From: Amoebophrya sp. A120
Taxonomy: Eukaryota > Protista > Dinoflagellata
NCBI GenBank assembly: GCA_905178155.1
Contig: CAJINV010000007.1
Coordinates: 2,523,151-2,587,150, forward strand
Length of the DNA stretch: 64,000 bases
Reading direction: 5' to 3'
Part shown: positions 4,447 to 59,000 of the stretch, piece after piece
Position numbering within the stretch: the stretch's first letter is position 1
Layout of the letters: every line of letters begins with the position of its first letter
Made by a program: the position numbers and the translations under genes
The notes under the pieces: generated by a model
What the model was told of the DNA's origin: nothing
The model's database searches: none
The model's input: only the letters and a program-made list of their open reading frames with translations

Positions 4447-6675
4447 CTACACTACCGCGGCCGCCGCCAGCGTCTGCAAATCCTGTAATCCACAACTCTG
4501 CACGTCCATTGCCCGTATGACAGAGCTATGCGTTGCGAATATGATGTCTGAGTCTGGAGAGGTGTGACGCAAGAAGTACGCGTATACTAGACGGACTCTA
4601 ATGCACATCAAAGTACTTATTCTTTTTTGTGAATCTTTGTTGCGTATTCAGCACGACAGCCTGGGTTTTTGCATGACAGGCTTGAGGAGTAGTTCGTCGT
4701 GGCCACGCAGTATAGAGCTCAGAGAGATGGACATCCCACACTAGCATGACAAGTCACGCTCCCGCAATCTTCCAGGAGCCTGGACCAGGCGACCCAGACA
4801 TTATATTTGCATCGGATAAAAGCCTACTTCATCGTTGAACAGTTGGCTGTTGAACCGGCCTTTTTTCTGAAAAGCGTCCAACTCGTGGTCCCTCCCCGGC
4901 AGCACCAGAAACCGACGAAACTGCTCGGTGTTTCGCAGAAGCGGGTTCGGCGGGTTGTGGCTCGTCGGGAACTTTTCGCGCAGATACCGCATGGTGTCGA
5001 TCCCCTTAGTGTAGTCAGCGAGCGTGTCGTTCCGGCTCATGATGAGCAGGTAGGAGGGAAGCAGACTGACACTCTGCTTCCAGTACTGGTCCGGCGGGAA
5101 CAGGGGCGCCCACCCGGCGAGCGCGCCCGATTGCTGAATCACGAAGTTGATGGGGCTTGTTGCCTGCGCCAAATGCTCGTCGTTTTCAAACGGGATTGCG
5201 TTTGGATTGCTTGATGTTGTTCCCGCGCCGGCCACATTCCCCGTCGTGCCTAGCCCTAACTTCAACTCTTCGAAGAATCCGGCGTGCCCGGCGTTGTGCG
5301 CCCCGGCCGCGGACCCGACGAGGCCGATTTTTGACGCGTCGATGTTGTAGGCCGCTGCGTTTTGCTTCAGAAACCGGATGCTAGTCCACACATCCCGCAC
5401 CGGGTCGGAGAGAATGCGGCTTTTCCACTCGGTTGTCAACGAATTCCACCGTCGGTACTCGACGGAAACCCCTACAAAGCCTCTTTTCGCCCAACCTCTC
5501 GCGTGCTTTCGCGCCTCGTTGGAGCTTTTCGAAGAGTTGCGCTGCGCCGCTTCCGGCAGCCAGGCACCGCCGTGGAGGAACAGGACAGCGGGGCGGGGGG
5601 GTTGACGTTGGGGGGTCGTCGGCGCGCCGTTAGTACTTGATGGAGGTGTAGGAGGTGACGCCAGCTCTAGTACATCAGGTGGAAGGTACAGATCTAACTT
5701 CAAAGGGTAGCTCTTCTGGTCGTTATCCACCAAATTCCGCCCCGTTCCGTACAAAACATTGGTAACTTTCGTGATCTGGCTATTCCTGAATTGATTCGCG
5801 CAACAGGGCAGCAGTCGCGGGCAGAAGAGGGATTCCTTCCACATCTTGTCGATCAGCAGCTGTTGTGCCGTTTGGATGATCGTCTGTGCGAAGATTGTCG
5901 ACGAAGCATTTGATGGCACTGCTCCTGTAGAAGTTGTGTCATTCGTATCGTTCATCGCCGAAGTAGAATTAGTGCTACTCGCGTTCGTAGTTGTGACATT
6001 AATCATATCGTCCGTCCAGACAATGAGTCCAGTGCTCGTCGCGTCACTGACAACGTCGGTCCAGGTGTTGCCCGACGTGTCTGTGTCGGCCGCAGTTCCA
6101 GGTTGCGCTGAACTACCACCAGAACTAGTCAGTGTCGCATTGTAGTTATTTTCTACTCCGAGAAAGTTGTCGAAGTTCAGCAGGTCATCTGCGTTGAGAA
6201 TCAGTTCCTGTTGCGCGGAGTTGTCCACTGCGATAGTGGTTGTTTTTAATCTGTCATTCCCCCCGTCTTTGGACAAAGCAAACGTCAAGAAGACAAAGCC
6301 CACGACGAGACCACCGACCGCGAGCAGGGAGAAGCCAACCGCGAAGGTTGTGCTTCTGGAAAAGGTTCTTGTTTTTCCGACAAGCTCCGCCGTGGAACTC
6401 CTGGCGGTGGAAGAGAGTCTTGCGAGGCGAGCAGAAATCTGGCTTGAAATTGACGGAGATTTTCGTAGCTCTTGTTGATGATGTGGTCGTGCATTTTTGT
6501 CCTCCTCGTCATCTTCACCGTCGTCAACGTGGTCATCCTCCCAGGGAAGACGGGTCGTGGTGCAGCTGACAGCACCTGCTGCAATTGGGTTAGAGTTGGG
6601 TCGGGTTGGAAGGTCAAGGATTACCACGCTCTGGAGGGAATTCGGGGCCACAGCTGGTCTCGCTTCATCTGCCAT
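4447..6675 (-). CDS. type II membrane-anchored alpha/beta hydrolase (HSL/BD-FAE-like esterase), possibly inactive; 2 exons
   Basis: LKLDLYLP, PAVLFLHGGAW, GFVGVSVEYR, IDASKIGLVGSAAG motifs and one N-terminal TM helix; removing 4522-4818 gives ...NDEVG(F/S)VIRAMDV...TAG at 4447. Confidence 0.75.
4522..4818. mobile_element. TIR introner, family A (non-canonical intron, 297 nt)
   Basis: TIRs tatgcgttgcgaatatgatgtctgagtc / rc tatccgatgcaaatataatgtctgggtc; imperfect TSD agagc/aaagc; removal restores frame. Confidence 0.75.
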
Positions 6676-7882: not shown

Positions 7883-10800
7883 TTACGGGCGGAGCTGCAG
7901 CTGTGCTGCTTGTGCGAGCGCCTCCCGTGCGTGCTGCGGAGGTTGCCACTTGTTGATGTCCGGTGGCAGGTCAAGTGGGTTACTCGGGTCTACGGGCCCG
8001 GCAAAGGTGTCGGCCCAAATGCTGTCTTGGTCGGTGTGGTTTACCCACCGTCGGTTCCAGTGAAAATCTTCGTGCGTCATCCAGTTGAAGGATCGCATGA
8101 GTGACGTGCCGTCGCTGCGCCCACTGGCCGTAACCTGCGAAAAGACCTGGATGATGGGCAGTGCAAGCACGAGGTAGAGCAGCAGCACCTCCGCGAGGAA
8201 GGAAATTTTCGCGACACCAATGGGCAAGTCCGACATGAGTAGCAGCGGCAACTGGGTTCCGAAAGCGAACACAACGAAGGCGGCCCAGGCGAGTAGCAGA
8301 ATGACTGCTCGGATCGGCTGCCAGACCCGTCCCTCGGACCGGAGGACGTTGATCGACCAGGTGTAGCCGGGGCATTTTACCTCGTTTGAATGGAAGTTTA
8401 AACTGCTCCCGTCTGCGTCCCCGTCGTCGTCCGAAAAAAAGGAGACGCATTCGCCGTAGAAAAGTTGGTAATTCTCAAAAAAGAGCAACGCCGTCATGGC
8501 GAGCATGGCGGAAGTCCCGTGCAGAGCATGCATGTACCCCCAGAACGTCGTGTCCACTTCGGTGTCAAGTTCTTGAAGCCTCAGCTGCGCTTGTTGCGGT
8601 TGGTCCGTACTGCGGCCGCGATCCCCGTCGTTTAGGTCGTTACTCACTTCGACAAAAGACACGGGCTCCCAGATGTTCGGCTTCAGCGTTTCAACCGTCA
8701 TCATTTCTTGCTTCGCGGCCACGAGCGCCTCCGCCTTCGCTCTCGCCCGCGCATCTTCCTCCGCCTGCAGTTCCCCCGGCGAGGCCGAGATGTCCAAGGT
8801 GGCGCGGGCGAGGCTGTCCTCTCCGCGTTTGTCGACGACACTCTTGCTGAATTTGTTTCCCACGCTCGCAATGATCTTGTTCTTCGCCTCATTTTTCGCG
8901 TCCAGCCTTGCCTTGCTACTTTGCTTGTTGAGCAACTGACTACGCGGACTAGAAGCGCTTCTGGGTGTGGTAGCAGCAGCAGGAGTGCCACCACTGCTGT
9001 AGTTGTCACTGTCCCCGCCTTGCTCGATCTCCGGAATCAGGGCAACATTCTTGTTCGGAAGATGACCTGGGGAAGTTTTACTTATGCTTGGCAAAAGGGA
9101 ATCCAGCTGCGAATCAACATCTCCATCCGGAGGGCCTCCACCAGCAGCCTCCCCCTCACCGCGCCTCCTGTTGCTGCCGGACATCTTTCCGCCGCGGCCA
9201 CCTATGTGCGTCAAAGTGCCGTCTGGGCGCGGGACGACTGACGGGCTTGACGTGGCAAAACGGGACGAGGACAACCACCGGGGCTGGGTTTTATCCGTCA
9301 AACTGGGGATCGCACCGGTCAGAAAGAACCCCACCGCGGGCACCACGTACCACACTGAGCGCCAGAAGTTCTCGGGCGCGGAGTTCACCAGCGGCTGCAG
9401 GAGGCCGTTGTAGTCCTTGTCTGTCATGGGAATCCAGGCCGGGTAGATGTGCAAGGGGTAGGCCGTGAAAAGCAGGGCGAGCGCGAACAGGATTAGGGAC
9501 ACGCTCCACAGCTGCCCGGCCACCGTGTCCTGCCGCTGCGTCACGTTGGACAGCGTGCCTTTCTTGGGAAAGTTCTCCGGCAACAGGTGCGGCCGGCTGA
9601 ACACGATGTTGCACGGCAGGCAGGTGCCCAGGATCAGCATCAGGTACGTGACGGAGAGCAGAACGAGAATATGGGAGTGTCAGAGTTGAAATCGACAAAG
9701 TTGAAATGATTTGTCATGCATAAAATGCGACACAAAGACTGACTCTATTGCTGAAGGCGCAAGGGAGGCAGATTCTAGTGCTGGCAAGGGAAAGGGTCAA
9801 GAAGTGGGCTGCTGACTAGCATGACAGGGAGCAGCCTCCTTGCCCTAAACAGCATGACAGACTTGCTTCAGAGGCCAGGAAAATTTGTCATGCGCCGATT
9901 GGAAACTGTGGGTCCAACTGGTATAGATTTTATGCATCACACACAAATTATTTCAACTTTGTTAATTTCAATCCTGACAGTTCCATAGAGGACCATCACG
10001 TCGTAGTTCTCCGCTTCTAGAAGGACGTTTGCGTGCTATCAACTGTAAAAGTGTCTGGGTCTGGAAGAATGCGCGATTTGTAATGCAGTTTTTCCATGCC
10101 CCATGAGGTCTGGAATGCAGGGCCTAGCATGACAGATTCTGCGAGATCTCTATCATGCCTATCCTGCATGAGAAACTCCTTGTCACCTTGGTCAAAAATG
10201 CACGGCTTTATTTGGTACTCATGCAACACAGATTGTTGCATGATCCAGATTTAGCATGACAAACATGCATTCTTCCAGACTGCTCAGACATTTTTACATT
10301 TGATACGTGCAGTTTCAACACCAATTGCTCATCCGTCACGGCTATGCACTGCAAATATGAAGTTTTATGTGTATGTCTGGGTCTAGAGCGTTCGAACTTG
10401 TAATGCAAATGCTGGAGCATGCGAACTGGTAAATGTAAGAACTTTGCGTGCTGCATAACCAAGAAAAGTCGCAGCCTCCTTTGTCAACAAGCAAAAACGC
10501 AGTTTCTCATGAGGGCTGCGTATGAGAAAGCGTTCTGGGTGGCAGCTGTCATGCTCGGCTGCCATCGGAACTGTTTCCTTTCCATATCCATGGCCATGCT
10601 GCGCATTTTAGCATCACAAGTTTCCAGAAGCAGACATTCATATTCATAAGCATTTGCACTGCATAACGGCCCGCTCGCGCATCCGCTTGAAAACAACCGC
10701 GAGATTTTCGTTCAACGCGGTGACGTTGTTCAGCAGGTAGTCGAACCTCTGCCACTCCTGCGGGGTCACGTCTGGGGGGTGCCGCAGCCCGTAGGCCAGC

Positions 10801-12125
10801 GAAGTTTCGTGTCCGCGCTTTCCTTTTCGCAAATCGTCGCCGGTAAACATTTTCTCTATGCCCATCCTCTTCGCCTCGTCGTTCTTCTGAATTTTTCTCC
10901 ACTCTTGTATGGTCATGTTATCGTACCGGGGGTCGAACAGATAGCCGTAGCGCGTGTCGTATCCACTGCAAAAGAAAAAGTATCGCGCTCCTACTAATCG
11001 CAATCACGACGCGTGACAAATCTTGCTTCAGATACTGAATGATCTGCATGTACGTTCTTGACAGCTTCCAACTTTCTTCTTGACAAAATCATTTGTCTAT
11101 GCGATTGATGCTAACTCGTGCGATACTTTTGGAATGCGAATGCGTATGTCGTATGGGGGAGGTGGAGCAGCGCCAGCAGCGCCTCCAACATCATTTGAGT
11201 TCATAGAGGATGAAAGCAGCGGCGAAGGTTGCTCGTGCTCTGAGGTGGCAACGACGCTGGGGTCTTTCGGTTGCTGCGGTTCTTCCGGTTCCTGCTGAAA
11301 ATTGCGAGGCGCTGCAATACCAGGCGAGTTTTGCACGATTGCTCCGCCTGTACTTGATGTGGTGGAATATGATCCTTGCGCGTTCTTGTCATTGAGATTT
11401 GCAGCGTTATTGTTTCCGCTGGCGCTGGAAGGACCGCCTGCTTGTGTGATCATTGTAGTGCCTCCCGTACTAGGTGAGGACCGCGACAGTTCTACTTCCG
11501 GAGCAAGGGCGTCATCAACATTTTGCTCAATTTGATGATTTCCACCGTCAGGAGGGTGGCTTTGGTTGTAATTGTAAAGCCCTGGTAGTCTCCTTTTCAC
11601 CTCCGAACTTTCGTCTTCTTCTTCACCGGCGGCGTTCGGACGAGCAGCTCCAGGCAGCTGCACAGGATTACCGCCGATGCTCATCTGCCGCACGGCCGGG
11701 GACGCGTTTTGGTTTTCGGTCGTACTCTTGGTCTTGTCGGATGAATCAGCAACATTTAATATCCCGGCGCTTCTGGAGATTTGACGCAGCTCCCGATAGG
11801 CTTTAGAAGTGCTACTTCGTGTAGTTCGTGATGCTTTGTTCTTGTGGTCCTGTTGTTGGCGTCCGAGGACGAACAACGTTGTTGTAGCAGTACAACATGT
11901 ACCTCTTGGTGTAGCTGTGAAAGTTCCACCAGAGAAGTCGGATGCTGGAAGCCGGAAAAAAAAGCACAGCAGGCATACTCGCGGCAAACTGTCCAGGAAC
12001 GGCTGGAAGACGCGGACTGGGAATCCGAATTTGAGGGAAGATCGACTACTTGTCCCCTGGAGCTGGAGCGGTGGAGATGATTTGCTGCTGCGCAACATTT
12101 TTGATAGCGACCACGTCGTACCCAT
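7883..12125 (-). CDS. multi-pass membrane protein of unknown family (paralog 1), 5 exons
   Basis: ORFs 11097-12146, 10644-11003, a ~32-nt micro-exon, exon 9988-10031 and ORF 7883-9640 join in frame (PPPYDTRYG, RERAVTDEQ, KLHANVLL, VMVLVLLS) after removing four introners; several TM helices; start codon uncertain. Confidence 0.7.
9665..9987. mobile_element. TIR introner, family B (323 nt)
   Basis: ~44-nt TIR tatgggagtgtcagagttgaaatcgacaaagttgaaatgatttg / rc tatggaactgtcaggattgaaattaacaaagttgaaataatttg; TSD gagaa/gagga. Confidence 0.85.
10032..10305. mobile_element. TIR introner, family A (274 nt)
   Basis: TIR tatcaa.tgtaaaa.tgtctg; perfect TSD cgtgc (10032-36, 10306-10); interior closely similar to 22919-23194. 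Confidence 0.9.
10338..10665. mobile_element. TIR introner, family A-like (328 nt)
   Basis: TIR tatgcactgcaaat / rc tatgcagtgcaaat; perfect TSD acggc; removal restores frame. Confidence 0.85.
10955..11146. mobile_element. TIR introner, family C (192 nt)
   Basis: degenerate TIR with aaaagtatcgc core; perfect TSD tgtcg; joins PPPYD-TRYG. Confidence 0.8.
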
Positions 12126-13444: not shown

Positions 13445-16400
13445 TCACGGCGGTCTAAAAGTGTCGTACCAGAGGGAAAACGGTCCGCCGTCGCCCACCA
13501 GCAAGTTGGTCTCGTCAGCGTGATCGAAGGCCGTTCGGCGCAGCATCTGCAGCATGTCCCTGCTCGCCGTTGGGTCGGTACTGAACGCGAGCGACCGGAT
13601 GTGTTGCAGACACTGCAGGAGGGGCAGGGAAAAGATCAAAAAGTAGAGAAGAACTTCCAGCACGAAGGAAATTCTGGCGGTTCTTGGCATTGTCAAGGTT
13701 CTTGCTGCTCCTACAACTGCCACGCCACCGTTTGATACGTTGCTGTCCCGGCCGAGCCTTGTTTTGAACAGGTACCCAAACCAGCAAAGCGCCACTTGCG
13801 CGCCGAAGACAAACATGACGAAAACGACCCAGGCAAGTAACACGGCAACTGTGCGCACTTGCTGGATCTGGAACCCGTTGTTGGTGTGTAGCGTCAGGAT
13901 GTGCTGCCCGTGGTCTTTACAAGCGTCCACGTTGAACATGCTGGAGGGCTATCCACAATAAATCGAGTTATTGATGTTGTTCCCGCACACGTACAAATTC
14001 AAATCAATGCTGCCTCAGGCTCTGCATGACAAAACTCTTCTTGAATGCTAGTCAACATGTTGAGAAGTTCGAAGCTGTTCAAGTGTTACGCTCTTCTGAG
14101 TTACATAAATAATTTGTGACGCATTTTTCTTTCATCTTTGCATTTACATTTTGTAGGTGTACAACTATACAACTGCAATAATTTTTTTGTACTGCCTAAG
14201 TGGAAGCTGAAGGTCGGTGGCGGACTGCCAGGCTCTCCGTCCAGATCGTCGTTTTCGTACGCAAGAATGGTCACGCACTCCCCGTAAAACAGCTGCACGG
14301 TTTCGAAGATCAGCATGATTAGCAGGGAGTACGGCGCCGCGAGTTTCTGTGCGAGCAGGAGGAGTTGCAGGTTCGACACAGGGAAGTAGGAGGAGGGTTT
14401 AGCGCTTCTGTTCCTTGCCCCGGCATCATCATCCGGGTCACCGTCACCCCCACCGCTCCTGTAGTTTGTTTCTTCGCTATCTTCCGGATTGTACCCTGTA
14501 ACCGGGTTGTCCGCGTCCGGTTTTCCCGCCGGTTGCTCCATCTCCGTAGTTCCCTGGGGTGCCATCGCATGTTGTCCCTCCACGGCTTTATTCTCGCCAG
14601 CAGAACCAGCCTTCTGCTTCGAAGCTGTAGCACCAGGATGGTGCTCGTGCTCCTGCAGATACTGCTTCTCCACGTCGTCGGGGCTGACGTTCGCGCTGGA
14701 AGGAATCCCGGGGCGGGAAACCAAGTCCATGGAGTGCCCACCGCCCGAACCATCCGAACCGGGCATCTCGTCGGACGAGGGCGGCGCGCTGCCGAGGTCG
14801 TTTTCGTTGCCAGAAGATGAATGCGGCTCGTCGTCAATTTGATCCCCACCGTCGTTGTATTCCTCAACTGGCGTAGTACTTGAGATGATCCCACCACCGC
14901 GCTCGTCGTTGTAAAAATCGCTGCCAGAATCACTCGCAGCTGCTCCACCTGATTGCAGTGCAGATGGAAGATGATGGCTAGCGGCTCCTGGACTCCGTCG
15001 CGCTACACTTCGCTGCCGTTTTGTAGATGTTCCCGCTGCACCAGAAGCTTGTCTTTCACGATTTCCCCTCTCCGCATCGACGAAATCCCCATCAAGATCT
15101 TGAGCTGGCGCGCTACTCTTGACCGAAACGGCCGCAAACACCGCAATCGGCACGAGGCCGGAGAAGAGAAACCCCACAGCGGGTAGTAAATACCACAACC
15201 CGCGAAGAATTTGTTCGTTGATGGGCATAATCCCCGGGATCAAAAACACGTTTCCGTAATCCGCCGTCGGGATCCAGGGTGAGTAAATCCGGTTCGGATT
15301 ATGCAATACAAATTTCCAGAACATGCACACGTACAAAATACATCACAAGAAGTTTCGCTAACTTTGTTCATCGTAAAAACTACCACGACTCGTCATGCGA
15401 ACCAGGGTCGAAGGCAAGCTTTGTCATGCGGAAATCGCATTGCTTGTGCGTGTACGGTAAATTGAGATTTACTGTGGATACGGGTACTCCGCGAACAACA
15501 GACCACACCCGATCAGGACCGAGCACACAGACCAGAGTTGGAAGCGTTTTGTCGTTTTCGATTTGATCAGCACGGTGCTGTTAATCGTTCCGACCCGTTC
15601 GAATTCGGCCAGGAATCTGGAACGGGACGGATCTTCATCTGCTGCAACTAACGCTGGTAGGTTTCCAGCAGTCATCCTTGTTCCTCGAAACCTAGCCGAC
15701 CCGAACACCAGCAAACAGGGCCCGAAGATTAGGCCGAAGAGGACAGTCAAGCTGATTAGCAAGACGATCACGAGCGTGACACCGTCCTTCTGGAAACCTT
15801 CCTTCATCAGCAACGTGCTCATCGTCATTGCATTTTCCTCGTCCATGATGGACCGCTGTTGGATTCGCCGCAGGACGAGGGGAAGGTGTTCGCGCAGAGC
15901 CGTCTTGTTCCGGACCAAATAGTTTCTCTCCGTCCACGCGGGGTCTTTCACGATGTACTTGAAACCCGGTGTACCCTGCAGCCGCTCCTCCTCTTCCAGC
16001 TGAGCCTTAATCTTCATCGCGTCCGGGGGCGTTCTCTATCACAAGAAAAGTCGTGCTTCAATACGTTATTAACGGCATTCGGCCGGCAGCAGCGCAGGCA
16101 TGCAAAAGCAGACTGAAATTTGTATGTGTGCTAGGTATATTTTGAATTTGTCACGAAAAAGAATCATTTTGTGCAATAAAACTGCTATTCATCTGTGTTC
16201 AACAGCACTTTTCTGTGTGATATTTTCCTGCTCTCCCGCGGAATGGATTGCAGCTCTTGGGCCTCCAGCACGTCTAGCTGCGCCTTTAGCTTGCGGATTT
16301 GCTCGTCGATGGCTTTATTTTCCTTCTCCTTCTGCCTTTGCTCATCAAGCTCGTAGATGTCCTTAAACGCGTCGTTGATCATTGCGACATGTTCTTCAGT

Positions 16401-37540: not shown

Positions 37541-38951
37541 CTAGAATTAAAATTATATATTTCTGGTGGGTCGTGCTCGTGAAGAAGCTCTAATAGGTGT
37601 AGCCCTCTAGTTGTGTTCTAATGGAAAAATGGAAAATCTAATAGAGTTCCTATCTTTCTACTACTGATATATAAAGCGAGGAAAGCACAAAGGTGGTGGT
37701 GGACGTCAAAGGAAAGCGACCAGCTATAGCTCTCTGCGGGTTCTTCTCAGAAAGTAAATGTAAATGACGAATCGAGCGAGAACATCAAGAACATACAGCA
37801 ACACCTCCGTCGAAAAAAATAAGATGCCGATAAGCGAATTCGAAAATAAAACCAAAAAAATCTCAAACTCGCGACTCGATGGCGATTTGCTTTTGGTGCT
37901 GCAGCAGGCGACACGACAGACGAAGATCGGATCCGAAAAACGAAGATTTTCATACACTTTGTCGATTTTTGCGGTCCTCAGCACCCACTCTATCACGCTC
38001 GTGCAGCACGACCACGACCAGGCTACGACTCACTGGACTGCATTTGAAGAAGAAGAAAGAAAAAAGATCCGCATAGACTTACTAGAGATGGATCGACACA
38101 CAGCGCAAAAACTGAAATAAACAAACTGAGCTTGTTCATCAGAACTCACTGTACTAGCGCCGCAGGGCCATCATAGATATAGTTTATTTGAACTTAAGTT
38201 GAGTCGAACAGACGAGTATAGCACGGTCATTCTATCTATGATCAATTTCAAGCGGCGCCGGTCCGGTACTTCCAGGAGTCTGCTTGTCGCTGCAGCTTCC
38301 CGGAGAAGAGTGCGCCCTTTCTTGAGTATACCAACCCAGATCAAGAACTAATGCAGGAGTCTCTTCTCTCCTTGTTACTATTAGCCGCACTGGACCCATC
38401 CCGCCCGCTGCTATTTGCGCAAAAATACTTGTTGTACTCCGTCTATTGCTGAAAAAATTGCCTTTTGCTTTTTCTATTCCTGATTCGGTGTGGCCTTTAA
38501 TCAATGAGAATATTAAAAATGGATGGAAAATAAGTATTGAATCCAAATTCGCGAGTTATGTACACATCCGATAGTGGCAATGCCTTTCTTCTTCGTGGCG
38601 TTATTTTTCCCTTAGTTACTAGACAACCCTCGTAAGAACTGGCCGTAGAAGTGTACAGCGTTGACATACAATGGAAAATTTTGTTTCTGACCTAAGGTGG
38701 CCCTTCTGCCAGTTAATAATGCAGATCATTCACGCCTGATAAATACCTGTGAAGATTCCCTTTTCTTTTGATTCTCTCTTTTGTAAAATGAAGTATGTCT
38801 CAGGACTTCTTGTAGCTGCCCGAGACGCCATGTTCGTGTAAAGTTGATTCGACATCGTGACCGTCTTATTGTTTTTAAAAAACTGTTTTAGTTTTATATT
38901 AGTGCGGCAATAATATGCTGGTGGAGACACTATCTGCATGTGCTCCCTCCC

Positions 38952-43021: not shown

Positions 43022-46000
43022 TTACTTCGCCGGCATCACATACAGATCTTGAATTTCCCGCTCAATAAAGGTCATTCTGTTCCTCTTCAAGTCCCGCAGG
43101 TCTCCGCACTGCTTCCGCCAAATATCCGTGTTGAAATCGTGTTTCAAGTGGATGAATTTCGCATCTTCGTCGAACTTCGATACCCGGATGGAAAGCCATT
43201 CGGGAACTTCCTTTGAAAATTCCACCAGCACGTCCGCGATTGTGTTGACGGAAAAGTCAGACTTGTTGTTCCGCGTGATCTCCTTTATGCCGGCGTGTCA
43301 ACGTTCTCAGACAAAGGACTCTCAAAATTTTTTCAGTAACCAGCGCAGTACCTCGGGACGAGACCTCTCCGAAGGGGTCGCCAAAGTGGTCGCGTGAGAT
43401 AGCTAGTTTGATGCGTTTGGCCCCTCGCGCAATACTTCCAGACTCAGTTAGTGGATTAGCAACGTTCTCAGACACTAAAAATAATGAAGCGCCTCGATTT
43501 ACAACTTTTTCAACCCGCCCTCCAGAGGGTCGAGGTGGCATTTTCGATGCGAGTGGCGTCGTTCGTGTTCGTCAGTGTTCAGAGATCATCCAAGAGCAAC
43601 AGCTTGCTCGGCGGAGCGGGGAGCTAGCTATTTGAATGATATATCTAGTGCACGCGCTCCTTCAAGTAGCATGCAACTCTGAATCTGAAAGTCAAAATAG
43701 GTACCCATAAAAAAATACAAAAATTAAAATAGTTTTATCTTCTACTCCAACTCCAGTACCGAGTTCAAATTTTTTGGGTTTTTTTTTTGTTGAGAACGTT
43801 GACATCGCCATATCCTTCACCAGCTCGTTGTGCGGGACAAAAGTTGGTCGCTGCCGTTGGTCAAAGCTGATTTGGATGAGGGGAAGGATTTCCAGAAGCC
43901 TCGCGAGTCGGTCAGACTCTTTCGCCAATTTTTCCTTTTCCGCAGTCAGCTTCTTCACGCGATTGGCGATCTGTGGTGATCAAATGCAGGCTCGGGTATC
44001 TTCCTGTTTCTTGTTCACTGCAGCTATTCAAACTCATGGATGTTGATCTCATGGTGCGTCTTCACAAAAAAGCAGACCTACGAGTGACAAGTTCTTTAGT
44101 ACCTTCCCCTTGTGCTTCGCTTTCTCCGAGATACTCAGTTTCTTTCCGCTAGCGCTGGAGACTTTCCATGCGCCTTTCTTCGGATCTGGGGTAATGGGCG
44201 CACCGCCGGCCGCCTTGGATGTCTGTTTCGGAAGCTCTGGTCCAGCGAGTTCGGGCAGCTTCGCATGCGGAATGTCTTTGTTCAGGCCGAATTTGCCGAG
44301 ACTGTCGTGATAGTTAGACGTGGATGAAATTCGAAGAAGTTTCGACACCATACACGAGAGACGAGCGCATTTAACCCATAGGTACTACATGCATTTTCGT
44401 TATGCGCGACACCAAAAATCAATGATTAAATACCGCTCAGACACTGTTCTCCATCTCCTGTACAGCACGTCGGGCGTCATGTTTCCCACGCACAGCCGCG
44501 TTTTCGGCGTCTTTGCCTCCGCGGCTGCTGCCGCCCTTGTCTTCTTCAGAATGGAATTCGGTGCGCTGCTACTGCTCGAATAACTGGACGACGAAACATT
44601 CGCACCTTCCTCCACCCCGTCTGTCGCGGCGTCAATTGCGGTGTCCGCCGAGCCTTCGTCGGCTTCCACCTGCGTCTATTCCTTGAAAATTTACCATCCC
44701 CATGACCATTCAGTTTGTCATGCAAAACCTGTACGCAAATCCAAACTCTGTGTTTGTCATGCATACCCGACTGCGCCACTTCAAAAACCTTTGCACCGTT
44801 GCCGCAAGCAGCTCCGGACGCAGGAGATCTAGGGTCAGAACCGCGAAAAACATCGCAAGTATATCTTCATCCCCGGGCACTTTTATTATCTTTTCCTTAC
44901 TTCTCGCTAACACTGTATAAGCTGCAATGCAAAAAGTGGATGGGGAGGGTTAATTTCTAGAGAATAGGGTCAGCACTATGTTTTCGTCCCCGTGGACCAT
45001 TTCCACCCGTTCGTCCCCGTTCGCGGGGACCGCCGGCACCCTTTCCGACCGGAGCAAGTCCTTGGCAACAAACAGAATGCGCTGCAAGCGCGACACCGTC
45101 AACGACCGATTGCAGTCCTTCTCCGCGTCCTTCCGTAAATCTCCAATTTTCGTTCTCCCGCCCCGGATCTGCCGCATCGCGAGCAAGCGGTCGATTGACT
45201 GAAACAGGTGAAGCAGAGATTTCTGCTCGTCATCCAACTGCGGCGGAACGTACTGTCGATTGAGCGCTGTGTTCTTCGAAACCTCGTCTTGTTGTCCGAG
45301 GACCACCTCCGTCACTAACGGCGTCAGCGGCTTCGCCTTCGGCGACCGGATCTCGAGGTGTAACCCCCGCCGAGGACCACCTCCCCCCACTGCAGCTCTC
45401 GGGTTCGGCGACAGCAGCCTGTTTCGTTGCGAGCTTTTCAATTTCGCCACCGCGTCCGCGTGCCTTTGCGCTTCCAAGCTTCCGACGGCGGACTGCCCGC
45501 CGAGAACCTCTGGGTTTGCGGTGAGTATCACGAGAAAAAAGTGTTACAGTTACACATTTGTTAGAGTTTGTTTCTGCATCACAAATTTTCTCTGTGTGGC
45601 AGAGAAAACTTGTAATGCGAAGATCATAAGGGAAAACAGGAAGGAAACGAGGCTCCCAAGCATTTCCTGCATGAGAAAGGTTGTCTGTGTTGCCGGTCTT
45701 GCAACACAATGTGTAACTGTAACACTTTTTTCTTGCGATAGTGAGCTTCCGTCGTTTATTGTCTTTGTCATCCGCCTCGTCCAAATCGAATGACAGCGTC
45801 ATCTTCGTTTTCCCCGCTTCAGCGGATCGTGGCCCGGGAGAGATCAGGTTTTCATTGATGGCGTCTTGCGGGGTTCCGAACCGCTTGGGTGTCGTCTTCC
45901 TCATGCCGCCAAACGGATGCCAGGTATTGCGGAAGGGCGATTTGTTTTTCGAATCTAAGTCTTGCAACGGAGTGTCACCTTTCTTATTCGTTTTTTGTCG

Positions 46001-46108: not shown

Positions 46109-48003
46109 ACTTCGCACGTGTATGAGGAAGTAGAAGAAGTACTGGAAGTTTTCGCTTTTTTTACTAAAACATCCTGATAATACAGCCTAAGCATTTTCGT
46201 GATATTGCAATGAAGAGTTCGAAGCACATGGTGCACTTGTTTGGATGTCGAAAAGACGAGATAACCACCAAAAGCAAAACCTTGTCGTCTTCGGGAGGGC
46301 TGACCACCGCTGCGCCCCGCTTGTGACTCCCCCGCACAACCGCCCTTGCGTTTTATCCTGTGCAAAAGTATCGCATTCGTATAAATGCAAGTCTTGCATT
46401 ACAAATCTACACTACTCTTAAGGTAGATCAGCATTACAAATTTAATTTCTCACGCTGAGGAAATTTGTAATGCATTTATACGAGTGCGATACTTTTGCAG
46501 TTCATACGTTTCCCTGCGACTCAATTTCCGTCACGTCGATCGAGTTCCGGAAAGAGACGCCTTTCTTCTCAGACAAAAGTTGCCGACTCCTGCCTTGTAA
46601 AACGTCGTCGTCCTCGGTACTGTCTTTCGAGGCCTGATTGAATTGAAAATTAGAATTGAACAATTGTCGCATGGATAAGTTGATCAGGAGATCAAGATCA
46701 CTCCAGCACCAGCATGATCTTCGTGCAACCATGCAACGTTTGTTCTTTCCTCGTCAGGCTCAGGGGATCATGAGGACATCGACCGGATGATCAACACCCT
46801 GGCCTTATTGATGTTATAACCACATGGTTCATTCGCTCGACGTTCATGTGCGGCGAAGTGCGCCAGAAGTCCCTATCTACCTTCCTTTTTGGCTTTGCCT
46901 TTTTCCCACTGGTTTTTCGCTCATCCTCCGCGATCGTTTCCAGCTCGTCGGCGTCAAAAACGGCCCCCAGACCGCTATTGAGAGGAAAAATCCCCCCTCC
47001 CCATATCGAAAAGGTATCTTTCCGCAAATTTGTGTTGCTGATTTGAGGCCACAAATCACGTTTGTCTTGCAAGAAGACAAGGGCAGAGGCTTCCGCCCCA
47101 TCATGGACGCGATTTGTCATGCTGTTGGGCCTAAAGGTTAGCCGTTTGCAATGCTGAACAACTAGACCCATACGCCCCTATCAAGCCTGGGGATCTGGCC
47201 GCAATGCCTTCCTGCAATACAAATCTGATTTGTGTACGCAAATCCAGCGTCACAGATCTCGTTTTTGATATGGGGAGGGGGGATCTTTCCTTTTCATAAC
47301 CGCGCTTTTTGTCCCCCGGCGTCAGTGCTCGTTTCGGCGTTGCGAGCTTCTTCTTGCCCTTCCCCTCCTCCTCCTCTTCGTCCGGCGCCCACGTAACCTT
47401 TGCCATCTTTTTCGTTGCGCGCTTCATCTTGTTTCCCGACTTTGAGGACGGCGGCTGCTGGTCCTCGTCCTCTTGAGTAGGCTGCTTTTTGTCCTTCGAG
47501 CCCGGAGCACTTTTGCCTTTCTTGGAGGCTCCTGCCTGTCCCGGCGTAGGTGTGGCTGGAGGTATTTTCTTATTTGCCGCGACCACTCCGCCCCGGGAAG
47601 AGGCAGAGGGGGACAGCAGGTGGGCTGCTGCGGCGGGAACTTCAACTTCTGCAGTAGATTTGCTACAATTCTTAATATTCTTGGCCTGCTGCTGGAGTGT
47701 TTTCCCAGTCTCATCTTCGCTCGTGAAGACGTCGTTAGAAATCTGGATTGCAACTTTCTTCGCTGAAGAGCTGGTGCTACCTCCCGCCGCGGCGCCGCTG
47801 AATGACGACGATGAGGCTGAAATATTACTGCTCCGGCCAGGTCGGTTTTTGTCCTCCGCGAAAAGTCGCGCGAGGCCGGGTTTTACGACGCTCTCCTGGT
47901 ACAGGTCGGATAGCCCGGCCTGCTCCGCCACCTTGAGCTGCGCGAGCTTCTTCTGTTCAGCTTCGACCTTCAGCTCGAGAGCGGTTTTCTTTCCGCGGGC
48001 CAT
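46105..48003 (-). CDS. hypothetical Lys/Ser-rich protein, multi-exon
   Basis: ORF 47131-48003 joins 46791-47171 across introner 47023-47236 (LDLR-KDTF); downstream exons flank introner 46349-46506; 3' end uncertain. Confidence 0.45.
46349..46506. mobile_element. TIR introner, family C (158 nt)
   Basis: 36-nt TIR tat....tgcaaaagtatcgca.tcgtataaatgca; perfect TSD cgttt. Confidence 0.9.
47023..47236. mobile_element. introner-like non-canonical intron (214 nt)
   Basis: direct repeat cgcaaat; short IR atttgt.ttgc; internal tttgtcatgc; removal restores frame. Confidence 0.6.
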
Positions 48004-48877: not shown

Positions 48878-49703
48878 CTACAAGTTCTGATTCTGCGTGC
48901 TCATTCTCCGCATGATGTCTGGATGCTCGGAATTCACGTACTCCGCTAACATCAAGTACACCGAGTTCTCCAGCATCTTCTCCGGCGCCGGTTTCTGGGC
49001 GGAGAGCCAGTGAAACAAGTCCGGATTGTCGACTTCTAGAATCTCCTCGAACAGCACACACTCCTCCTCGGTATCAACTGCAAATAACGCGTCTGGGTCT
49101 GGAAGATTGATGCAGCCATTTGTGATCATGCAGTGTCTGCGTAACCCAGAAGGTGTGGCATGCGAGTCTCAGCATCACAGGTTTCGAGCAGGTTTCCGTT
49201 TCTCAATGCCTAATCCGCATCACAAATCGTCCCTTCTTTCGATGACAAGGAAATGGCCGAGGTTTGCCGCCCATGCGTGCATGACAGATTTTTCTATCTA
49301 TGATCTAGATCTAAAAGTAAAATGCGCATCACAAGTTGCATCTTTGTCTTTCGTCCAGACCCAGAAGAGATGATATTTGCAGTCCATACTCGGTCAGATT
49401 CGCCAAGTGCTTCTGCGCAAATGTCCCGAGCAACCAGTCCAACTCCAACCACCCGCGTTGCTTCGCGCGCCAGGATAAACCCTTGCGCCGGGCGTCGTTC
49501 AAGTCGATTTCCTTTTCCGGTTTCAGAAACTTTGTCTCGGTTTGTTTCGCTGCGGCGGGAGCCGCTGCGGAGGAGAAGTTGCGAGGGACCACGACGAATG
49601 TGAAGACGGAATAAAGTTGTCGTGCTCCTGTGGCTGAGGTAGCTTGATGCGGACGGAAGAGTCCTCGCCCGGCACGGGAAAGCTGTTGAGACGCTGCTCT
49701 CAT
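48878..49703 (-). CDS. SDHAF2: succinate dehydrogenase assembly factor 2 (Sdh5 flavinylation factor), 2 exons
   Basis: mitochondrial-transit-like N-terminus; RKGLSWRAKQRGWLELDWLLGTFA and ILEVDNPDLFHW; NLTE-EECV restored by removing 49067-49388. Confidence 0.9.
49067..49388. mobile_element. TIR introner, family A (322 nt)
   Basis: TIR tat..actgcaaata with gtctgggtctgga core; perfect TSD ctcgg. Confidence 0.9.
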
Positions 49704-50422: not shown

Positions 50423-53400
50423 TCAATTCTCATTCTCGATGGCCAGCGCCGCTTTCTCCTCCTCTTGCGCATTGGGGTCCTTCTCGACCGATTCCGCTGC
50501 CTTCTGAAATTGCGCACCGTTTCGCTCGAGCAGGTTGGTCACTTCTTTGTTGAGTCTCTCCGCTTCGTCCGGAAAAAACTGCGCGACGATCTTCTGCTCC
50601 TCGTCCAAAAACTGTCTTTGTAGCGCTAGATCCTCGTTGTGGAGGCACTGGAGAAAGGAGACGAATCTGAGCATGACCGGGTGCGACCCGTAGACCCGTT
50701 CGAGACATTCCAGGATGACCTCGCAGATCTTCGTCCCGTCCTGCTTGTTTACCGTTTCCAGATTCGCTAGCAGCCCCTCGTGGAAGTAAAACCAGGACGC
50801 GGCAAAGACCATGTAGTGGTGCTTGGACATCGGCGCTTCCGGCGTATATGCGTCGGCGGCCGAGCAGCCCTGGCGACGCATGAAATCCTGCTCCGCCTGG
50901 CGGCAACGCTGCGCGAACTCGGGGGTGGCTGTTTTTTTTTGATGTTTGGGGGAAGTGATGGCGTAATTTTGTTCTTCGAGGACCAAATGTAAATTCCTGC
51001 CGCATACAATGAGATGACACGAGCTACGTACTGACTATGGAATGCATCAGCTGCAACGAGAAACCTCGAGCGAACGATGAAAACCAAAACGAAATCAAAG
51101 CGATACCTTTCTGTCCGCACGCTCGACAGCTGAGCGGGTGATTCCAGACTTCCGCCGGGTCGACATTATGCGTGCAGAATTCGTCCGCCCCGCAGCTCGG
51201 ACACGTGAAGCACCTCGTGATCTCCAAAGCGCTTTTCCAGCGTGGATTCTTCTCCTTTTCAAACTCCAGATGGCTCTTCTCCTGACTCTTTACCGGCGCG
51301 TAACAATCCGGAAACCCGACAAAATCCACCGTCAAGGGCTCGCCTTTTTCTATCGGCTTCAGCGCTCTGATCTCAACAGACGTGGTCATGAAAAATCCAC
51401 CCGGATTGCTGCTGTTTATATTTTGCTCACCCGCAGAACAAGTTAGTGCAGAAGTTTCTGGCTGACAGGCGATGAAGGAATCCCCAAACCCTTTGTTGTT
51501 TTCGTTCAGGAACCTGCGCATCAGCGGGCCGATGAAACAATTTGGGGTCGAGCTGTGCTTTACGACGGCTGGCAGGGCGTAGGCCGCGACGGCTTCGCTG
51601 GAATTGTCGTCCCAATCTTCGGCGATGGAAATCCACTGGTCGTCTTTATCGTCCAGCACGTAGCAGTTCAAGTAGATCTGCAGCAACGCATCCAAATCGT
51701 TCTTCGTGATTTTCTTCTGGAACTCCGGCCTCAGCCACTGCTCGTGAAGCTCGATCGCCAAGTCCGCGGTCTCGAGCTCACGCAATTCCTGCTCCTCCGG
51801 CGCAGGTATGGCGCTCTCAAGCGTTAGACTCTCAACTGCTACATGAATTTGCAAGAACGCAAAAACAGCATCAGCGCTGAAGGGGCTGGCTTGCTGCTTT
51901 CGCATCACAGATTTGGCACCGATTTAGATGCTGTCTAGTAGCCTTTCGGAGATTTGTCATGCGATGAAGCAGCTTGAAGATCATCTGGCGGCCGCGGCTT
52001 GCGGTAGTTTTGCGTGACAAATTCATGTAACAGTTGAGCATGTGCCGTTTGAGAACGCCATAGCAAGCTGGTTCATGTTTGGTATGGCGAGTTGCCGCAT
52101 TTCGGCAGATGAGCCCGGATCTGGTGGTGCTGCGTCCGCATGATCACTGATCTCGATCACGTGTGGATTTTCGACGCCCGCACAAGTACTGGAGGCCGAA
52201 GCTGGCGTTGTACTTGGTTTCTGCTGTATCACCGCCATTGCCAACGCCGGCGCGGTCACGTTTCCCTCGTGGTCGGTGATTTCGCTAGGCCTCACCGCGG
52301 TTTCGTACTCAGCACCACCAGCTCTATACCTATGTCCCGCGGGGTCGCGTTGTAGTTCTACCGAGCCGCCTCCTGCTTGCACTACCGCCACACTAGCCTC
52401 GTCGTTGGCGTCGAACAAAACGCGGGTAGAGGAGAGTTCGTCTTGGGCGGGACTCGAACCTGCACCGTCCTTGTCGGGTAAAGCAGATTGATGTTGACTG
52501 CTGTGCTGTTGTGCTGCTACTGATGAGCTACCGCCTCTTGACGATGATTTCGGGCTCCTCACCGCAAGCGCGTACTGGTACTCCTCTTGTAGTTCCTCAA
52601 CATTGCTTCGCTCGCAGAACTTCCGAAAAGAGTCGTTCTTCGTCAGCTGCTGCTCGAGAATTCGGAGTCGGTCGATTAGTTTCGTAACCCTTTCCTCCGC
52701 ACCGGGACGCTTCGAAGGGGAACTGACGTCGAGTAGGGTGGCAGGAACAACTGCACTGGCGTTGTTCTCCGAAGTGGTTGTAGTTGTGCCATCCTCTGTT
52801 GAAACCTCGTCGTCTTTCTGCGCCGGATAAAGCCGGGTATATCTGTGTGTGTTTTGGAGTTGCGGAGCTTTTACTTTTTGTCTTGCAAGACAGTGCACAT
52901 GAATGGTGATGCACAGCACATGAAGATGTTCATGTTCTTGCACATGCTAGTGCTACTGCTTTCTGGTTCAATGGAAATACTTCACGTCGTCGGAGGGAAA
53001 TCGGCCTAGCAACTGGGTGGCTTCTGAAACGCGCTCAAAATGTCCACTACCATGGCCATGGGACGCCAGGCGGCGATAGGGAGTGGCGCTGTCGAAGTGT
53101 TTCTTTTGGCCCCAGAGCCCAACACAAGAAACACAAAAAGAAGACGCGCAAATTGGACAAGTTCCCAGCTGCAAGTTGCCAGAAAAGGCCTCAGTTAGCG
53201 GCCAGGCACAAATGCGAGGGCCTAGGGCGGAAGGTCACCGGGCCCCTCCGGCCAGGCAGCAGCAAAAGGCGCAGCGGTCTTGTTCAACAGGTCTCGGCTG
53301 ACAGGCTTTTTCGACAAGTTGGGGCCGCCAAGTTGCAGAAAAAGCTCGTCTTTTCGTTTCTTCGCAGCTATCGCAGCCAAGAAGCCGGCTTGCACCCAAC

Positions 53401-56059: not shown

Positions 56060-59000
56060 TTACAAACTCACAAACTCCTCGGGTGGATCATACTTCTTTT
56101 TCCCACCTCCGCCACTTCTCCCCGTCCTCCCTTCCCCGGTCCGAGCCCCATCCCCGATGTCCGGGCGCGCGCAGGGGTCAAATGCCTCAAATCCGGGGTC
56201 GAACTTCTCCGCGCCGGTGGTCGAGAGGTCCTGCGTTGGGTCGAAGTAGAAGCCGCTGAGGAGATCGGCTGTGGATTCGGAAAGCGTCGAGTGGTTGGAC
56301 TTCGGACCGGAAGACGACGTCCCTGTTGCCGCGGAAGGTTGCCGACCTGACAATTATATTTTTGAGCGATGGATAATTATATCATGATCTTCAGGCTGAG
56401 TCATAGTAATTTATTGCCCTAAGTGAAGGAGTATTTTTTGAAATAGCGGCGACCACTAATGCTCACCATGCACGCACTAGCAGCAAAAATCTGGATCACG
56501 AGCACGGAGCCGCTAGTCAGATTAGTACCATAGGCTGCGTAGATGTCCTTTCCCGCAGACACCCCTGGCGCACCAGCAGATGTGTTGCTTGCCATTCCGG
56601 ATGAACTAGACACCGCAGCACCGTAGGCTTTGGGGTCGATCTGCCCCACCATGTTCGGTGGCACCGCCGCGAACTTGTACGTATTGCCCTGAAACGGTCT
56701 CGTCGCCGGACCGACCCCACCGTAATCCCGATTCGACAAAAACGCTTCGAATTGCTTCTCCCGCTTCAGCATCTCGTCCTCCTCTTCCTTTTTCTTCTGT
56801 TTCGCTTCTTTCTGCGCCTTTTCCTGTTGCTGTCTCTCCTCCAACACCCGCTGTCTTCGCAACTCCACTTCCCTGCGTAAGTTGTCTTCCTTCTGCTTCG
56901 CCGTCAGTTCCTCGAATCGTATGCGGTTCTTGACCCTGACCTCCTCGAGCTTCTTCCACTTCTGCAACACAAATTTTCGCACCGGCTCTAGGTCCTCGTC
57001 GAAGTCCAACTTCTGGGCCGTCTCCAAGTCCGTACGGGCGGCGTCCCAGCGCTGCAGTTTTCTATTTGTATTTCGGAAAAAGAATCGTATCGGTCGCACG
57101 CCTGTAACTGAATAAATTATGCTAAATCATAGTTAAGAAGTAACAGTAGGTAAAAACAAAAAAGGAAAAGGAATAAAAAAAAAGCAACTCATCCGCATCA
57201 AAATCTGATGACTTCTTGACCTCGGTACCTATTGGCCTTCCCCCGTACCCGAAATGCTTTTGCCGAGTCCGGGTTTAGTTCCAGTGCCTTGTTGCAATCC
57301 CGGACCGCGGTTGCTGGCTTCTTCAAGCGCAAGTAGTATTCTGCGCGTTTTGCAAACTGCATGGCCGTTCCCCGCCCCTGCTTCAGAATGAGCGTCATGT
57401 ACTTCACAGCACTTGCAAAATCTCCGAACTCCGCCGATTCCGCCGCGGTCTGGCTCCACTCCGCACAGTTCGATTGCTCCTTCGCCGTCGGCTCTGTGCC
57501 GCAATTATTCGGGAGATTTTCCTCCTCCACCAGCTCGGCGTGCTGTCTCTCTTCATCCTCAGCGTCGGAGGGGATTTCGAATAATTGCTGGCTTTTGCTG
57601 CTTTGGTTTGCTGTATTTGTGTTTCTTGCTGTCGTTTCATGATTTGGCTGATTTTTGTACGCGGAGCTGCTGCTCGTTGAGTTGTGCGATTACAGCTTGG
57701 ACGCCCATTAGATATAGGGGCGGTGAATTTCCAGTGATTTTAGAGGTGGCGCACAATTGGGGGGCTGCTCTTTCGGGTATTAGTGGTTCGTGGGGCAAGG
57801 GCTAGCAAAAATAGAGGCGATGGCATCACTGTGCTCGTCATTATCGCTCCATTACATTGATGGCCATCCCCCTCCGCGCAACGCCCAAGCCACCACATCT
57901 GATTTCTTGTTTTTTCGCAAAGGGATTCATTTGATGGCTTCATGATTTTCTCCTTTCCTTCTTAACCCTTCAACTTCCGTGTCCCAATTTTGGGCAACAA
58001 AAATCGCACAAAAACAGCACCCACTTCCATCGGGAAAGGCTTCCACTCAAACATCAATCGCCATGGTGTGACGAAGATGACTTTTTTGCTAAAAATCATC
58101 GATGCGGAGTGCCGTGCTGTTTGGCGCCAAAAAGCAGGTTAAAAGCACCCCCTTTCCCGATGGTGTGCTGCGATCGGTGAGTTTAGCGGTGAATTTAGAA
58201 ATGGGCGGCCGGTGAATTTAGGAAATGGTGGCCGGTGAATTTAGCTTCCCCCCACCTGATTCTGGATTCCCGGCCGCCACAAAACAAGCACCCATCTTGC
58301 CCTTCATTTCTAAATTCACCGGACCCAAAAAATCTGATCCAGAACAATGACCGTCGCATTTGCTCAAGAAAGTGCCAAACCTTTGGAGCATGCACGCACA
58401 AATACGAAACGACCGAAATTCTATTGCATCTTAAGGTCGCGCGAAAAATCAAATTAATGGAACTTGCCTTAGCAAAAGGCGTCGGCCAGCTCCAGACACC
58501 AAAGCCCGGCCAACCAGCCAAAACACCCAGAAAACAACACGAAGCGCGCGAAGTTAGTTTGCAACTGGCCGGGCTAGGATTCGAGCGTTGGAAATGCAGC
58601 TACGTATTATGGCTCCCCAGCCCGTGCTTTTTTCCTAGAAAATTTCCGCCGCTAGCGGAAGCCTGTTGAGATGTACGCTGCTACGGTTTTTCCATCGGTG
58701 GGCTTCGATACTTGCAGCAGGAAATATGTTGCGGCGCCACTCACTAAATTCTGGCAGGCCCCTAAAATCACTTGAAATTCACTCTGCTGAAATCTAATGG
58801 CCGTCCAAGCTGTAATTGTGCGAGTACCTCTTCGTCGTCGCATCTTCTGCGGACTCTACTTTCGGCGCTGTCGTGTCGGCGACGAAAACGGACTCGGTGC
58901 CCCACTTGTTTCGCTTTCGCTTACTGGGTTTATTTGTCTCGCCGACGTCCTCCACTTCGTTTTCAGATAATGGTAAGGGCCGCTTCAACATGGTCGAAGT

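What the first reader, a model, noticed from the sequence alone, without database searches (positions are those of the whole stretch)
4522..58816. About 28 transposon-derived non-canonical introns following one rule: TA(T)...(A)TA TIR element plus a 5-bp TSD, no GT-AG
Seen: many long ORFs break at short elements with TIRs of at least five families, mostly starting TAT and ending ATA, flanked by perfect or near-perfect 5-bp repeats. In all but the unresolved 51830 element, deleting the element plus one repeat length restores the frame. This includes conserved motifs of citrate synthase ([10 protein letters not shown]) and SDHAF2. In the cases checked, sliding within the TSD gives no GT..AG pair (SDHAF2 offers only GT..GA or TA..AG). 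Known: introners with inverted and direct repeats are reported from Amoebophrya, but the excision machinery is unresolved. Inference: removal is guided by the TIR hairpin or a TIR-binding factor rather than by U1/U2 dinucleotide rules.
Basis: partly seen in the sequence, partly recalled or inferred. Interest (0 to 1): 0.92.

Follow-up and report, generated by a model that had tools for sequence, protein, structure and literature searches.

The report
Amoebophrya transposon introns, one fixed cut
These are the already published transposon-derived introns of the marine parasite Amoebophrya A120, which lack normal splice signals; five informative copies together point to one fixed cut position beside their inverted-repeat ends, likely read by a modified spliceosome.

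Summary
I find 27 TA(T)...(A)TA elements with terminal inverted repeats; 22 have a 4/5 or 5/5 five-base duplication. Removing element plus 5 nt opens the frame in all 27, including the 'unresolved' 51807 copy. The window is Amoebophrya sp. A120: three spliced models equal its annotated proteins. These are the introner elements of Farhat et al. 2021, so the system is known. RNA-like contigs skip two elements exactly; a DNA-like run keeps them. Two exceptions: 26458-27776 can be placed as GT-AG, and 57690-58815 has an 8-bp duplication.

Added here: one register fits all five informative copies, intron = N|TAT...ATA|NNNN, where the paper calls the border variable or unknown. It holds even where the duplication has decayed. 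It puts TAT at +2..+4, as in this genome's GTA(T) donors. An interior motif GCAT[GC]ACA lies in 21 of 27 elements. The ends resemble IS3EU/GingerRoot, but the duplication is 5 bp, not 6. The catalyst is untested: modified spliceosome about 0.55, separate nuclease-ligase about 0.3. The scan noted similar hairpin introns in other dinoflagellates, none on this DNA.

The parts
2819..2986 (-).
4527..4818 (-). Introner in BD-FAE hydrolase gene, repeat 4/5; annotated protein allows only k=4 or 5
9670..9987 (-). Introner, repeat 4/5; family with 31828 and 40997
10037..10305 (-). Introner, repeat 5/5; family with 22924 and 49072
10343..10665 (-). Introner, repeat 5/5
10960..11146 (-). Introner with one TAC end, repeat 5/5
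13950..14198 (-). Introner with one TAG end, repeat 3/5
15300..15480 (-). Introner, repeat 4/5
16037..16222 (-). Introner, repeat 4/5
20590..20934 (-). Introner, repeat 3/5; shares a 159-nt interior (94%) with 44677
21290..21520 (-). Introner, repeat 5/5
22497..22733 (-). Introner, repeat 5/5
22924..23194 (-). Introner, repeat 5/5
26458..27776 (-). 1319-nt introner with a nested repeat, repeat 3/5; the only one of 27 with a GT..AG placement (k=3)
27853..28066 (-). Introner with one TAC end, repeat 1/5; +5 keeps the frame
29586..29697 (-). Shortest introner (112 nt), repeat 4/5; in frame and stop-free if retained
30543..30872 (-). Introner, repeat 5/5
31828..32158 (-). Introner, repeat 5/5; opposite orientation to its relatives 9670 and 40997
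40639..40824 (-). Introner in citrate synthase, repeat 5/5
40997..41313 (-). Introner in citrate synthase, repeat 4/5; Phe82 requires k<=4
43286..43812 (-). 527-nt introner, repeat 5/5
44677..44966 (-). Introner, repeat 4/5; RNA-like contig piece starts at 44967 without mismatch, so k>=4 (other side of the joint not shown)
45526..45740 (-). Introner, repeat 5/5; contig piece ends at 45520
46354..46506 (-). Introner of a very abundant family, repeat 5/5; frame test alone ambiguous
46976..47298 (-). Introner, repeat 5/5; contig pieces start at 47299
49072..49388 (-). Introner in SDHAF2; skipped as 322 nt (317+5) in two RNA-like runs, kept in the DNA-like run
51807..52062 (-).
57690..58815 (.). 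Different class: 1126-nt TIR element, TTACAG..CTGTAA ends, perfect 8-bp duplication; in-frame GT..AG options around it; removal not observed
38900..41697 (-). Approximate span of the citrate synthase gene: four GT-AG introns and two introners; model identical to A120 GSA120T00008050001 (494 of 494)

Best explanation
These are the introner elements of Amoebophrya sp. A120, short TA..TA inverted-repeat elements with a 5-bp duplication that likely arose as non-autonomous DNA transposons; they are absent from RNA-like contigs where seen, are likely cut at one fixed register (1 nt before TAT, 4 nt after ATA), and are predicted to be removed by a modified U2-type spliceosome. Steps. (1) Insertion by a DDE transposase with a 5-nt stagger, in either orientation: the repeat and both orientations are shown, the enzyme is inferred. 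(2) Removal of element plus 5 nt from RNA: shown for 2 elements, half shown for 3, inferred from frame for the rest. (3) Fixed register N|TAT...ATA|NNNN: inferred from five copies, about 0.85. (4) The register places U-A-U at +2..+4, the positions of this genome's GUA(U) donors, so the catalytic core would read +2/+3 with G+1 relaxed. The 3' cut would be measured from the terminal AUA instead of an AG, with the TIR stem or a TIR-binding protein standing in for U1. This step is inference, about 0.55.
For: Identity: models equal A120 proteins at 494/494, 643/643 and 302/302 (names). RNA level: runs X3 and X6 skip GT-AG introns and the 49072 and 51807 elements; X6's SDHAF2 contig ends in a short poly(A)-like tail; X1 runs through 49072 with no difference. 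Register: 2819 allows k=3 or 4, a test set up before the protein was retrieved; 4527 allows 4 or 5; 40997 allows <=4, and Cys occurs in 0 of 81 homologue motifs; 44677 needs >=4 and 51807 >=2. Only k=4 fits all. At 2819 the repeat is 1/5 and neither allowed placement has GT or AG. Farhat Table S4: 9 of 9 commonest A120 ends start N-T, and 9 of 9 in A25 start TT where the IR begins TTA-purine-purine. Canonical donors here have A at +3 in 6 of 7. One family sits 17 with and 14 against transcription, so the signal is symmetric. Farhat reports 83 of 89 spliceosomal proteins and U2, U4, U5, U6 in A120. Tunicate non-canonical introns are reported as spliceosomal.
Against: No lariat, branch point or intermediate was seen. 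At k=4 there is no base preference at +1 (A38 G25 C23 T23 of 109) or at -2/-1, which an ordinary spliceosome needs. The TAT match may simply be the transposase's end requirement, and my scans demanded TA ends, so its constancy is circular. Three of the five register points are annotated proteins (transcript-guided genome models), not reads, and each copy gives only a bound, so a common register is assumed. Table S4 may reflect aligner habits. No G-U excess over A-C. Euglena has a similar 3'-longer offset and is thought not to use the ordinary spliceosome. 30 of 155 metagenome elements had no open frame in their flanks.
Confidence: 0.55

Rival explanations
1. Same elements and same register, but removal is by a separate endonuclease-ligase that docks on the terminal stem and cuts with a 3-nt 3' stagger, convergent with euglenid nonconventional introns.
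For: No end-base preference at +1, -1 or -2. End stems are predicted in most elements (SDHAF2 intron z=-3.2). The Euglena code is N3-CDG...CHG-N5-6, also 3'-longer by 2-3 nt, with circular products. U1 was not detected in A120.
Against: The N-U-A start recurs in both strains with different TIRs. There is no G-U excess. 2819, 13950, 15300 and 22497 have weak or mispaired ends, yet 2819 is removed at the same register. No candidate enzyme is known.
Confidence: 0.3
2. The cut is not fixed: the machinery takes whichever position in or near the duplication best resembles a splice site, and k=4 is only the commonest outcome, as the paper's 'variable' border suggests.
For: Farhat Fig. 3 legend calls the sites variable relative to the hairpin. 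26458 offers GT..AG at k=3. Only five copies are informative.
Against: Five of five informative copies are compatible with k=4 and no other single value is. GT/GC-AG placements are not enriched (3 of 82). Perfect duplications make apparent variability an alignment artefact.
Confidence: 0.12
3. The elements are excised from DNA (IES-like or somatic transposon excision), and transcripts come from cleared templates.
For: TA ends and TIRs recall ciliate IESs (recalled). One DNA-like run cannot cover every life stage.
Against: X1 has contigs through 49072 and into other elements, and zero depth for the 49066-49389 joint. Removal is element+5 with a transcription-polar register, which DNA excision would not have. 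X1 may be the assembly's own sample.
Confidence: 0.03

Closest known systems
Introner elements / non-canonical introns of Amoebophrya sp. A120 (Farhat et al. 2021, PMC7789003; families also in Gozashti et al. 2025, PMC12130899)
   Same: Same strain, TAT-N7-AAA inverted repeats, 3-5-nt direct repeats (5 bp in Fig. S19 legend), about 240 nt, mixed with GT-AG introns in one gene, mechanism open.
   Different: Nothing in kind. The text I read gives no fixed register (border 'variable' or 'unknown'), no shared interior motif and no superfamily; I could not see the Fig. 3 logos, which may already show N-TAT.
Euglenid nonconventional introns (Nomura et al. 2025, PMC12501133; review PMC11282704)
   Same: MITE-like origin, paired ends, motif set at fixed spacers from the cuts with the 3' spacer 2-3 nt longer.
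   Different: Motif CDG/CHG with spacers 3 and 5-6 and a purine after the 3' cut; here TAT/ATA with spacers 1 and 4 and no purine rule. Circular products are reported there and unknown here.
Fritillaria non-canonical introns (review PMC11282704; PMC13326754)
   Same: TIR/TSD-bearing transposon-derived introns without GT-AG.
   Different: They keep preferred end dinucleotides (AG-AC, AG-AT), U1 is conserved and the spliceosome is reported to remove them; here the terminal bases are free and U1 was not detected.
IS3EU/GingerRoot DNA transposons (PMC10045372, PMC12730594)
   Same: TA..TA (TAY..RTA) termini with TIRs.
   Different: Usually 6-bp duplications against strictly 5 here; no transposase found; not reported as introns in the passages read.

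Membership tests
Amoebophrya A120 introner elements | Host is strain A120 | tested here: met
   three models identical to annotated A120 proteins
Amoebophrya A120 introner elements | Terminal inverted repeat starting TAT, then 7 variable bases, then A run | tested here: met
   TAT in 51 of 54 arms; A at positions 11-13 in 39, 41 and 47 of 54
Amoebophrya A120 introner elements | 3-5-nt direct repeat overlapping the borders | tested here: met
   22 of 27 match >=4/5
Amoebophrya A120 introner elements | Non-GT-AG ends | tested here: met
   26 of 27 have no GT/GC-AG placement within the repeat
Amoebophrya A120 introner elements | Repeated in the genome | tested here: met
   families within the window; 19 of 27 hit metagenome loci over >=80 nt; thousands of element-like contigs in X1
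Amoebophrya A120 introner elements | Removal supported by RNA | tested here: met
   2 of 9 elements in the laid stretch fully, 3 on one side, 4 not among the rows shown; contigs only, RNA status is the tool's guess
U2-type spliceosomal intron | GT/GC-AG ends | tested here: not met
   only 26458 qualifies
U2-type spliceosomal intron | Lariat with branch adenosine | not testable with these tools
   no raw reads of this strain were laid
Euglenid nonconventional intron | N3-CDG...CHG-N5-6 signature | tested here: not met
   end profiles
Euglenid nonconventional intron | Full-length circular product | not testable with these tools
   needs RNase R or junction reads
IS3EU/GingerRoot | TA..TA termini | tested here: met
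   27 of 27; 214 metagenome elements, selected on these ends
IS3EU/GingerRoot | 6-bp target duplication | tested here: not met
   exact repeat of 5 in 145 of 214, of 6 in 0
IS3EU/GingerRoot | Cognate DDE transposase in autonomous copies | tested here: inconclusive
   no Pfam transposase in window ORFs or in the 2459-nt copy of L067; whole genome not held
Ciliate-type IES (features recalled) | Excised from DNA | tested here: not met
   DNA-like run X1 keeps 49072; one run only

The most novel reading that the evidence does not exclude
A120 runs a second mRNA-splicing machine, independent of the spliceosome: a nuclease-ligase that reads transposon ends as a ruler (1 nt before TAT, 4 nt after ATA), perhaps recruited by the shared GCAU[GC]ACA motif. 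It would make any TA..TA transposon with a 5-bp duplication a perfect, scarless intron, convergent with Euglena.
Probability: 0.3. Interest if true: 0.85.

Novelty: already known. Interest (0 to 1): 0.42.

Why it matters
About two thirds of A120's introns are non-canonical and nobody has shown how they are removed. A fixed N|TAT...ATA|NNNN register turns 'variable borders' into one testable rule. It explains why a 5-bp duplication gives scarless removal in either orientation, tells where to look for a branch point or circle junction, and would let the annotation be corrected. If the spliceosome does it, its G+1 and AG requirements can be dropped wholesale; if not, there is a second mRNA splicing enzyme. 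The system itself has been public since 2021.

Tried and rejected
No whole genome is held, so no search for autonomous copies, U1 or U6 was possible. The run search listed no holder on record as RNA; raw RNA run X9 laid 3 reads and says nothing. Only 32950-52949 was laid, so 18 of 27 elements have no read evidence here, and 198 joints were not shown. A search for the 2963-codon product among 1898-5000-aa proteins found nothing (weak). Rfam: 0 hits. Register from duplication mismatches in metagenome loci: 23 mismatches in 82 stranded elements, no pattern, no stop-dependent case, underpowered. G-U versus A-C test for RNA pairing: no excess. GT or AG enrichment in the duplications: none. The 2459-nt copy in L067 has a 415-codon frame without Pfam match: not shown autonomous. 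41811-42453 (long TIR, flanks 2/5, upstream of citrate synthase) and the 1.8-kb insert near 53-54.8 kb were rejected as members. My first end guesses for 2819 and 13950 were wrong and were corrected. One search was swamped by the N run. Filing under IS3EU was rejected on duplication length.
Full report
OBSERVATION. In a scan of end-paired candidates, 11 of 201 TA..TA pairs carry a perfect 5-bp flanking repeat, against 0-2 of 366-799 for each of the other 15 dinucleotide ends (three repeat regions left out). Scans and inspection gave 27 elements of 112-1319 nt (median 269), all in minus-strand genes; 24 are TAT..ATA, and the repeat matches 5/5 in 14, 4/5 in 8, 3/5 in 3 and 1/5 in 2. Removing element+5 from all at once gives frames of 2963, 1492 and 1048 codons. 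Against +4 and +6, +5 was best in 23, tied in 1 and shorter in 3. Two exceptions: 26458-27776 has a GT..AG placement, and 57690-58815 has an 8-bp duplication with in-frame GT-AG options.

WHAT IT IS. The spliced citrate synthase model, with four GT-AG introns and two elements, is identical to GSA120T00008050001 of Amoebophrya sp. A120 (494 of 494). Two more models equal GSA120T00008057001 and GSA120T00008058001. Farhat et al. 2021 (PMC7789003; I read the abstract, passages, sections 10, 11, 12, 16, 25 and 32, supplement part 1 and passages with Tables S4, S5 and S7 and figure legends; figures not visible) describe 29,850 such introner elements in A120, with inverted repeats starting TAT, seven variable bases and an A run, 3-5-nt direct repeats, a hairpin model and no detected U1. 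The system is therefore known.

RNA, NOT DNA. One stretch, 32950-52949, was laid. X1 behaves as DNA (flat depth near 43 on unique sequence) and runs through the SDHAF2 element without a difference; it may be the assembly's own sample. X3 and X6 (contigs, RNA by the tool's guess, two samples of one study) skip GT-AG introns, skip 49072 as 322 nt and 51807 as 261 nt, and X6's SDHAF2 contig ends in an 8-base poly(A)-like tail. Pieces also stop at one border of 44677, 45526 and 46976. The other four of the nine elements in that stretch were not among the rows shown. X9 laid 3 reads.

THE REGISTER. Let k be the number of bases of the upstream repeat copy kept in mRNA. An exhaustive search of deletions against annotated proteins allows k=3 or 4 at 2819, 4 or 5 at 4527, and 4 or less at 40997. 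At 40997, k=5 would give Cys, seen in 0 of the 81 motifs found among 122 citrate synthase proteins (F 47, Y 24). Contigs give k>=4 at 44677 and k>=2 at 51807 (the tool left-aligns joints, as 49066-49389 shows). Only k=4 fits all five: intron = N|TAT...ATA|NNNN. At 2819 the repeat has decayed to 1/5 and neither allowed placement has GT or AG, so the cut follows the TIR ends, not the repeat. Limits: three points are transcript-guided genome models, and each gives only a bound. Table S4 agrees: all nine commonest A120 ends start N-T, all nine in A25 start TT, though aligner habits may shape that table. The paper's Fig. 3 legend calls the sites variable and the border unknown; its logos may already show part of this.

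A LARGER SAMPLE. A motif scan of metagenome contigs gave 131 loci; I used the 86 on JACKZZ01 contigs (269 kb) and left out 45. They hold the same families. Of 214 strong-TIR elements, 145 have an exact 5-bp repeat, 37 one mismatch, and none an exact 6-9-bp repeat. My choice among overlapping candidates favoured good repeats; the unfiltered control is 156 of 311 for TAT..ATA against 0-1 for eight other ends. Of 155 tested, 30 had no open frame in their flanks and 82 got a confident strand. One family lies 17 with and 14 against transcription. Only 3 of 82 allow GT/GC-AG. Over 109 elements the bases at +1, -2 and -1 show no preference. G-U wobbles do not outnumber A-C mismatches (52:46; window 18:19), so selection for RNA pairing is not seen.

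INTERIOR MOTIF. GCAT[GC]ACA occurs 41 times in 21 of 27 window elements (about 7 kb) and 4 times in the other 55 kb. It occurs 304 times in 133 of 182 metagenome elements against 3-9 in five shuffles. It crosses families that share no alignment, often lies 32-44 nt from an end, and leans to one orientation on the sense strand (96:56; 36:18 by element, p=0.02, related copies not independent). A subterminal transposase site is the simplest reading; an RNA-binding site is not excluded.

MECHANISM. At k=4 the intron starts N-U-A-U-(G/C). The seven GT-AG introns I fixed in the window have A at +3 in six and T at +4 in three, and A25's repeats start T-T-A-purine-purine. I infer that the spliceosome core reads +2/+3 with G+1 relaxed, and that the 3' cut is measured from the terminal AUA. 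Fixed branch-to-3'-site distances are known in some intron-poor protists (recalled). Against this, no end base is preferred, and Euglena's code N3-CDG...CHG-N5-6 has the same 3'-longer stagger with circular products (PMC12501133, abstract and discussion; PMC11282704, passages and section 6). Tunicate non-canonical introns are reported as spliceosomal (PMC13326754, listing and passages). Diplonemids add another paired-end case (PMC12621601, abstract and passages). I put the spliceosome at 0.55 and a separate nuclease-ligase at 0.3.

ORIGIN. TA..TA ends match IS3EU/GingerRoot, whose duplications are usually 6 bp (PMC10045372 and PMC12730594, passages); here they are 5, so this is a lead, not membership. 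Gozashti et al. 2025 (PMC12130899; passages, and 21 of 58 A120 rows of supplementary file 8; files 13 and 14 not searched) class most families I saw as TIR DNA of unknown superfamily and note an integrase-like frame in one. 'IS3EU' occurred in none of the 12 files searched.

NOVELTY. Paper searches found no work fixing the register or naming the motif. Subscription journals, theses, figures and bioRxiv supplements were out of reach and may bear on this. PMC12005148 and PMC11453091 (passages) only restate the 2021 result. The scan's own notes hold nothing on this genome and two unverified reports of hairpin-bounded introns in other dinoflagellates. Verdict: already known system, with a testable addition; interest 0.42.

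Noticed in passing
window 26458-27776: An introner swollen to 1.3 kb by a nested repeat (870 nt, 86% to L074); the two differences between its repeat copies create GT and CAG, a possible non-canonical-to-canonical conversion.
   Followed up: partly
window 57690-58815: 1126-nt TIR element with a perfect 8-bp duplication (hAT-like length, recalled) in coding frame of a TPR gene; in-frame GTAC...CAG sites lie just outside it; no interior motif.
   Followed up: partly
window 52957-54793: About 1.8-kb insert between two copies of a roughly 35-bp direct repeat, rich in tandem and inverted GTGACACGCA units; contigs stop at a CAG at 52843, so it seems to sit in a GT-AG intron. No Pfam match.
   Followed up: partly
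window 41811-42453: TAT..ATA element with about 100-bp near-perfect, internally repeated TIRs and no clear duplication, just upstream of citrate synthase.
   Followed up: partly
window 20590-20934 and 44677-44966: Two elements with different TIRs share a 159-nt interior at 94% identity, suggesting mosaic families or a nested module.
   Followed up: no
window 20141-32464: After removing nine elements, one 2963-codon frame; no Pfam match in the two large exons tested and no long homologue found.
   Followed up: partly
window GT-AG introns (e.g. 39622-39831, 50929-51106): All seven fixed introns end in CAG, and those printed have A-rich 3' ends without a pyrimidine tract.
   Followed up: no
L067:202-2660: 2459-nt element with 22924-family ends and a perfect 5-bp repeat, holding a 415-codon frame with no Pfam match.
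   Followed up: partly
window 61740-64000: Short tandem repeat, a 718-N gap, then GC-rich sequence unlike the rest of the window.
   Followed up: no
whole window: Every gene modelled lies on the minus strand, as in the unidirectional clusters reported for this genus.
   Followed up: no
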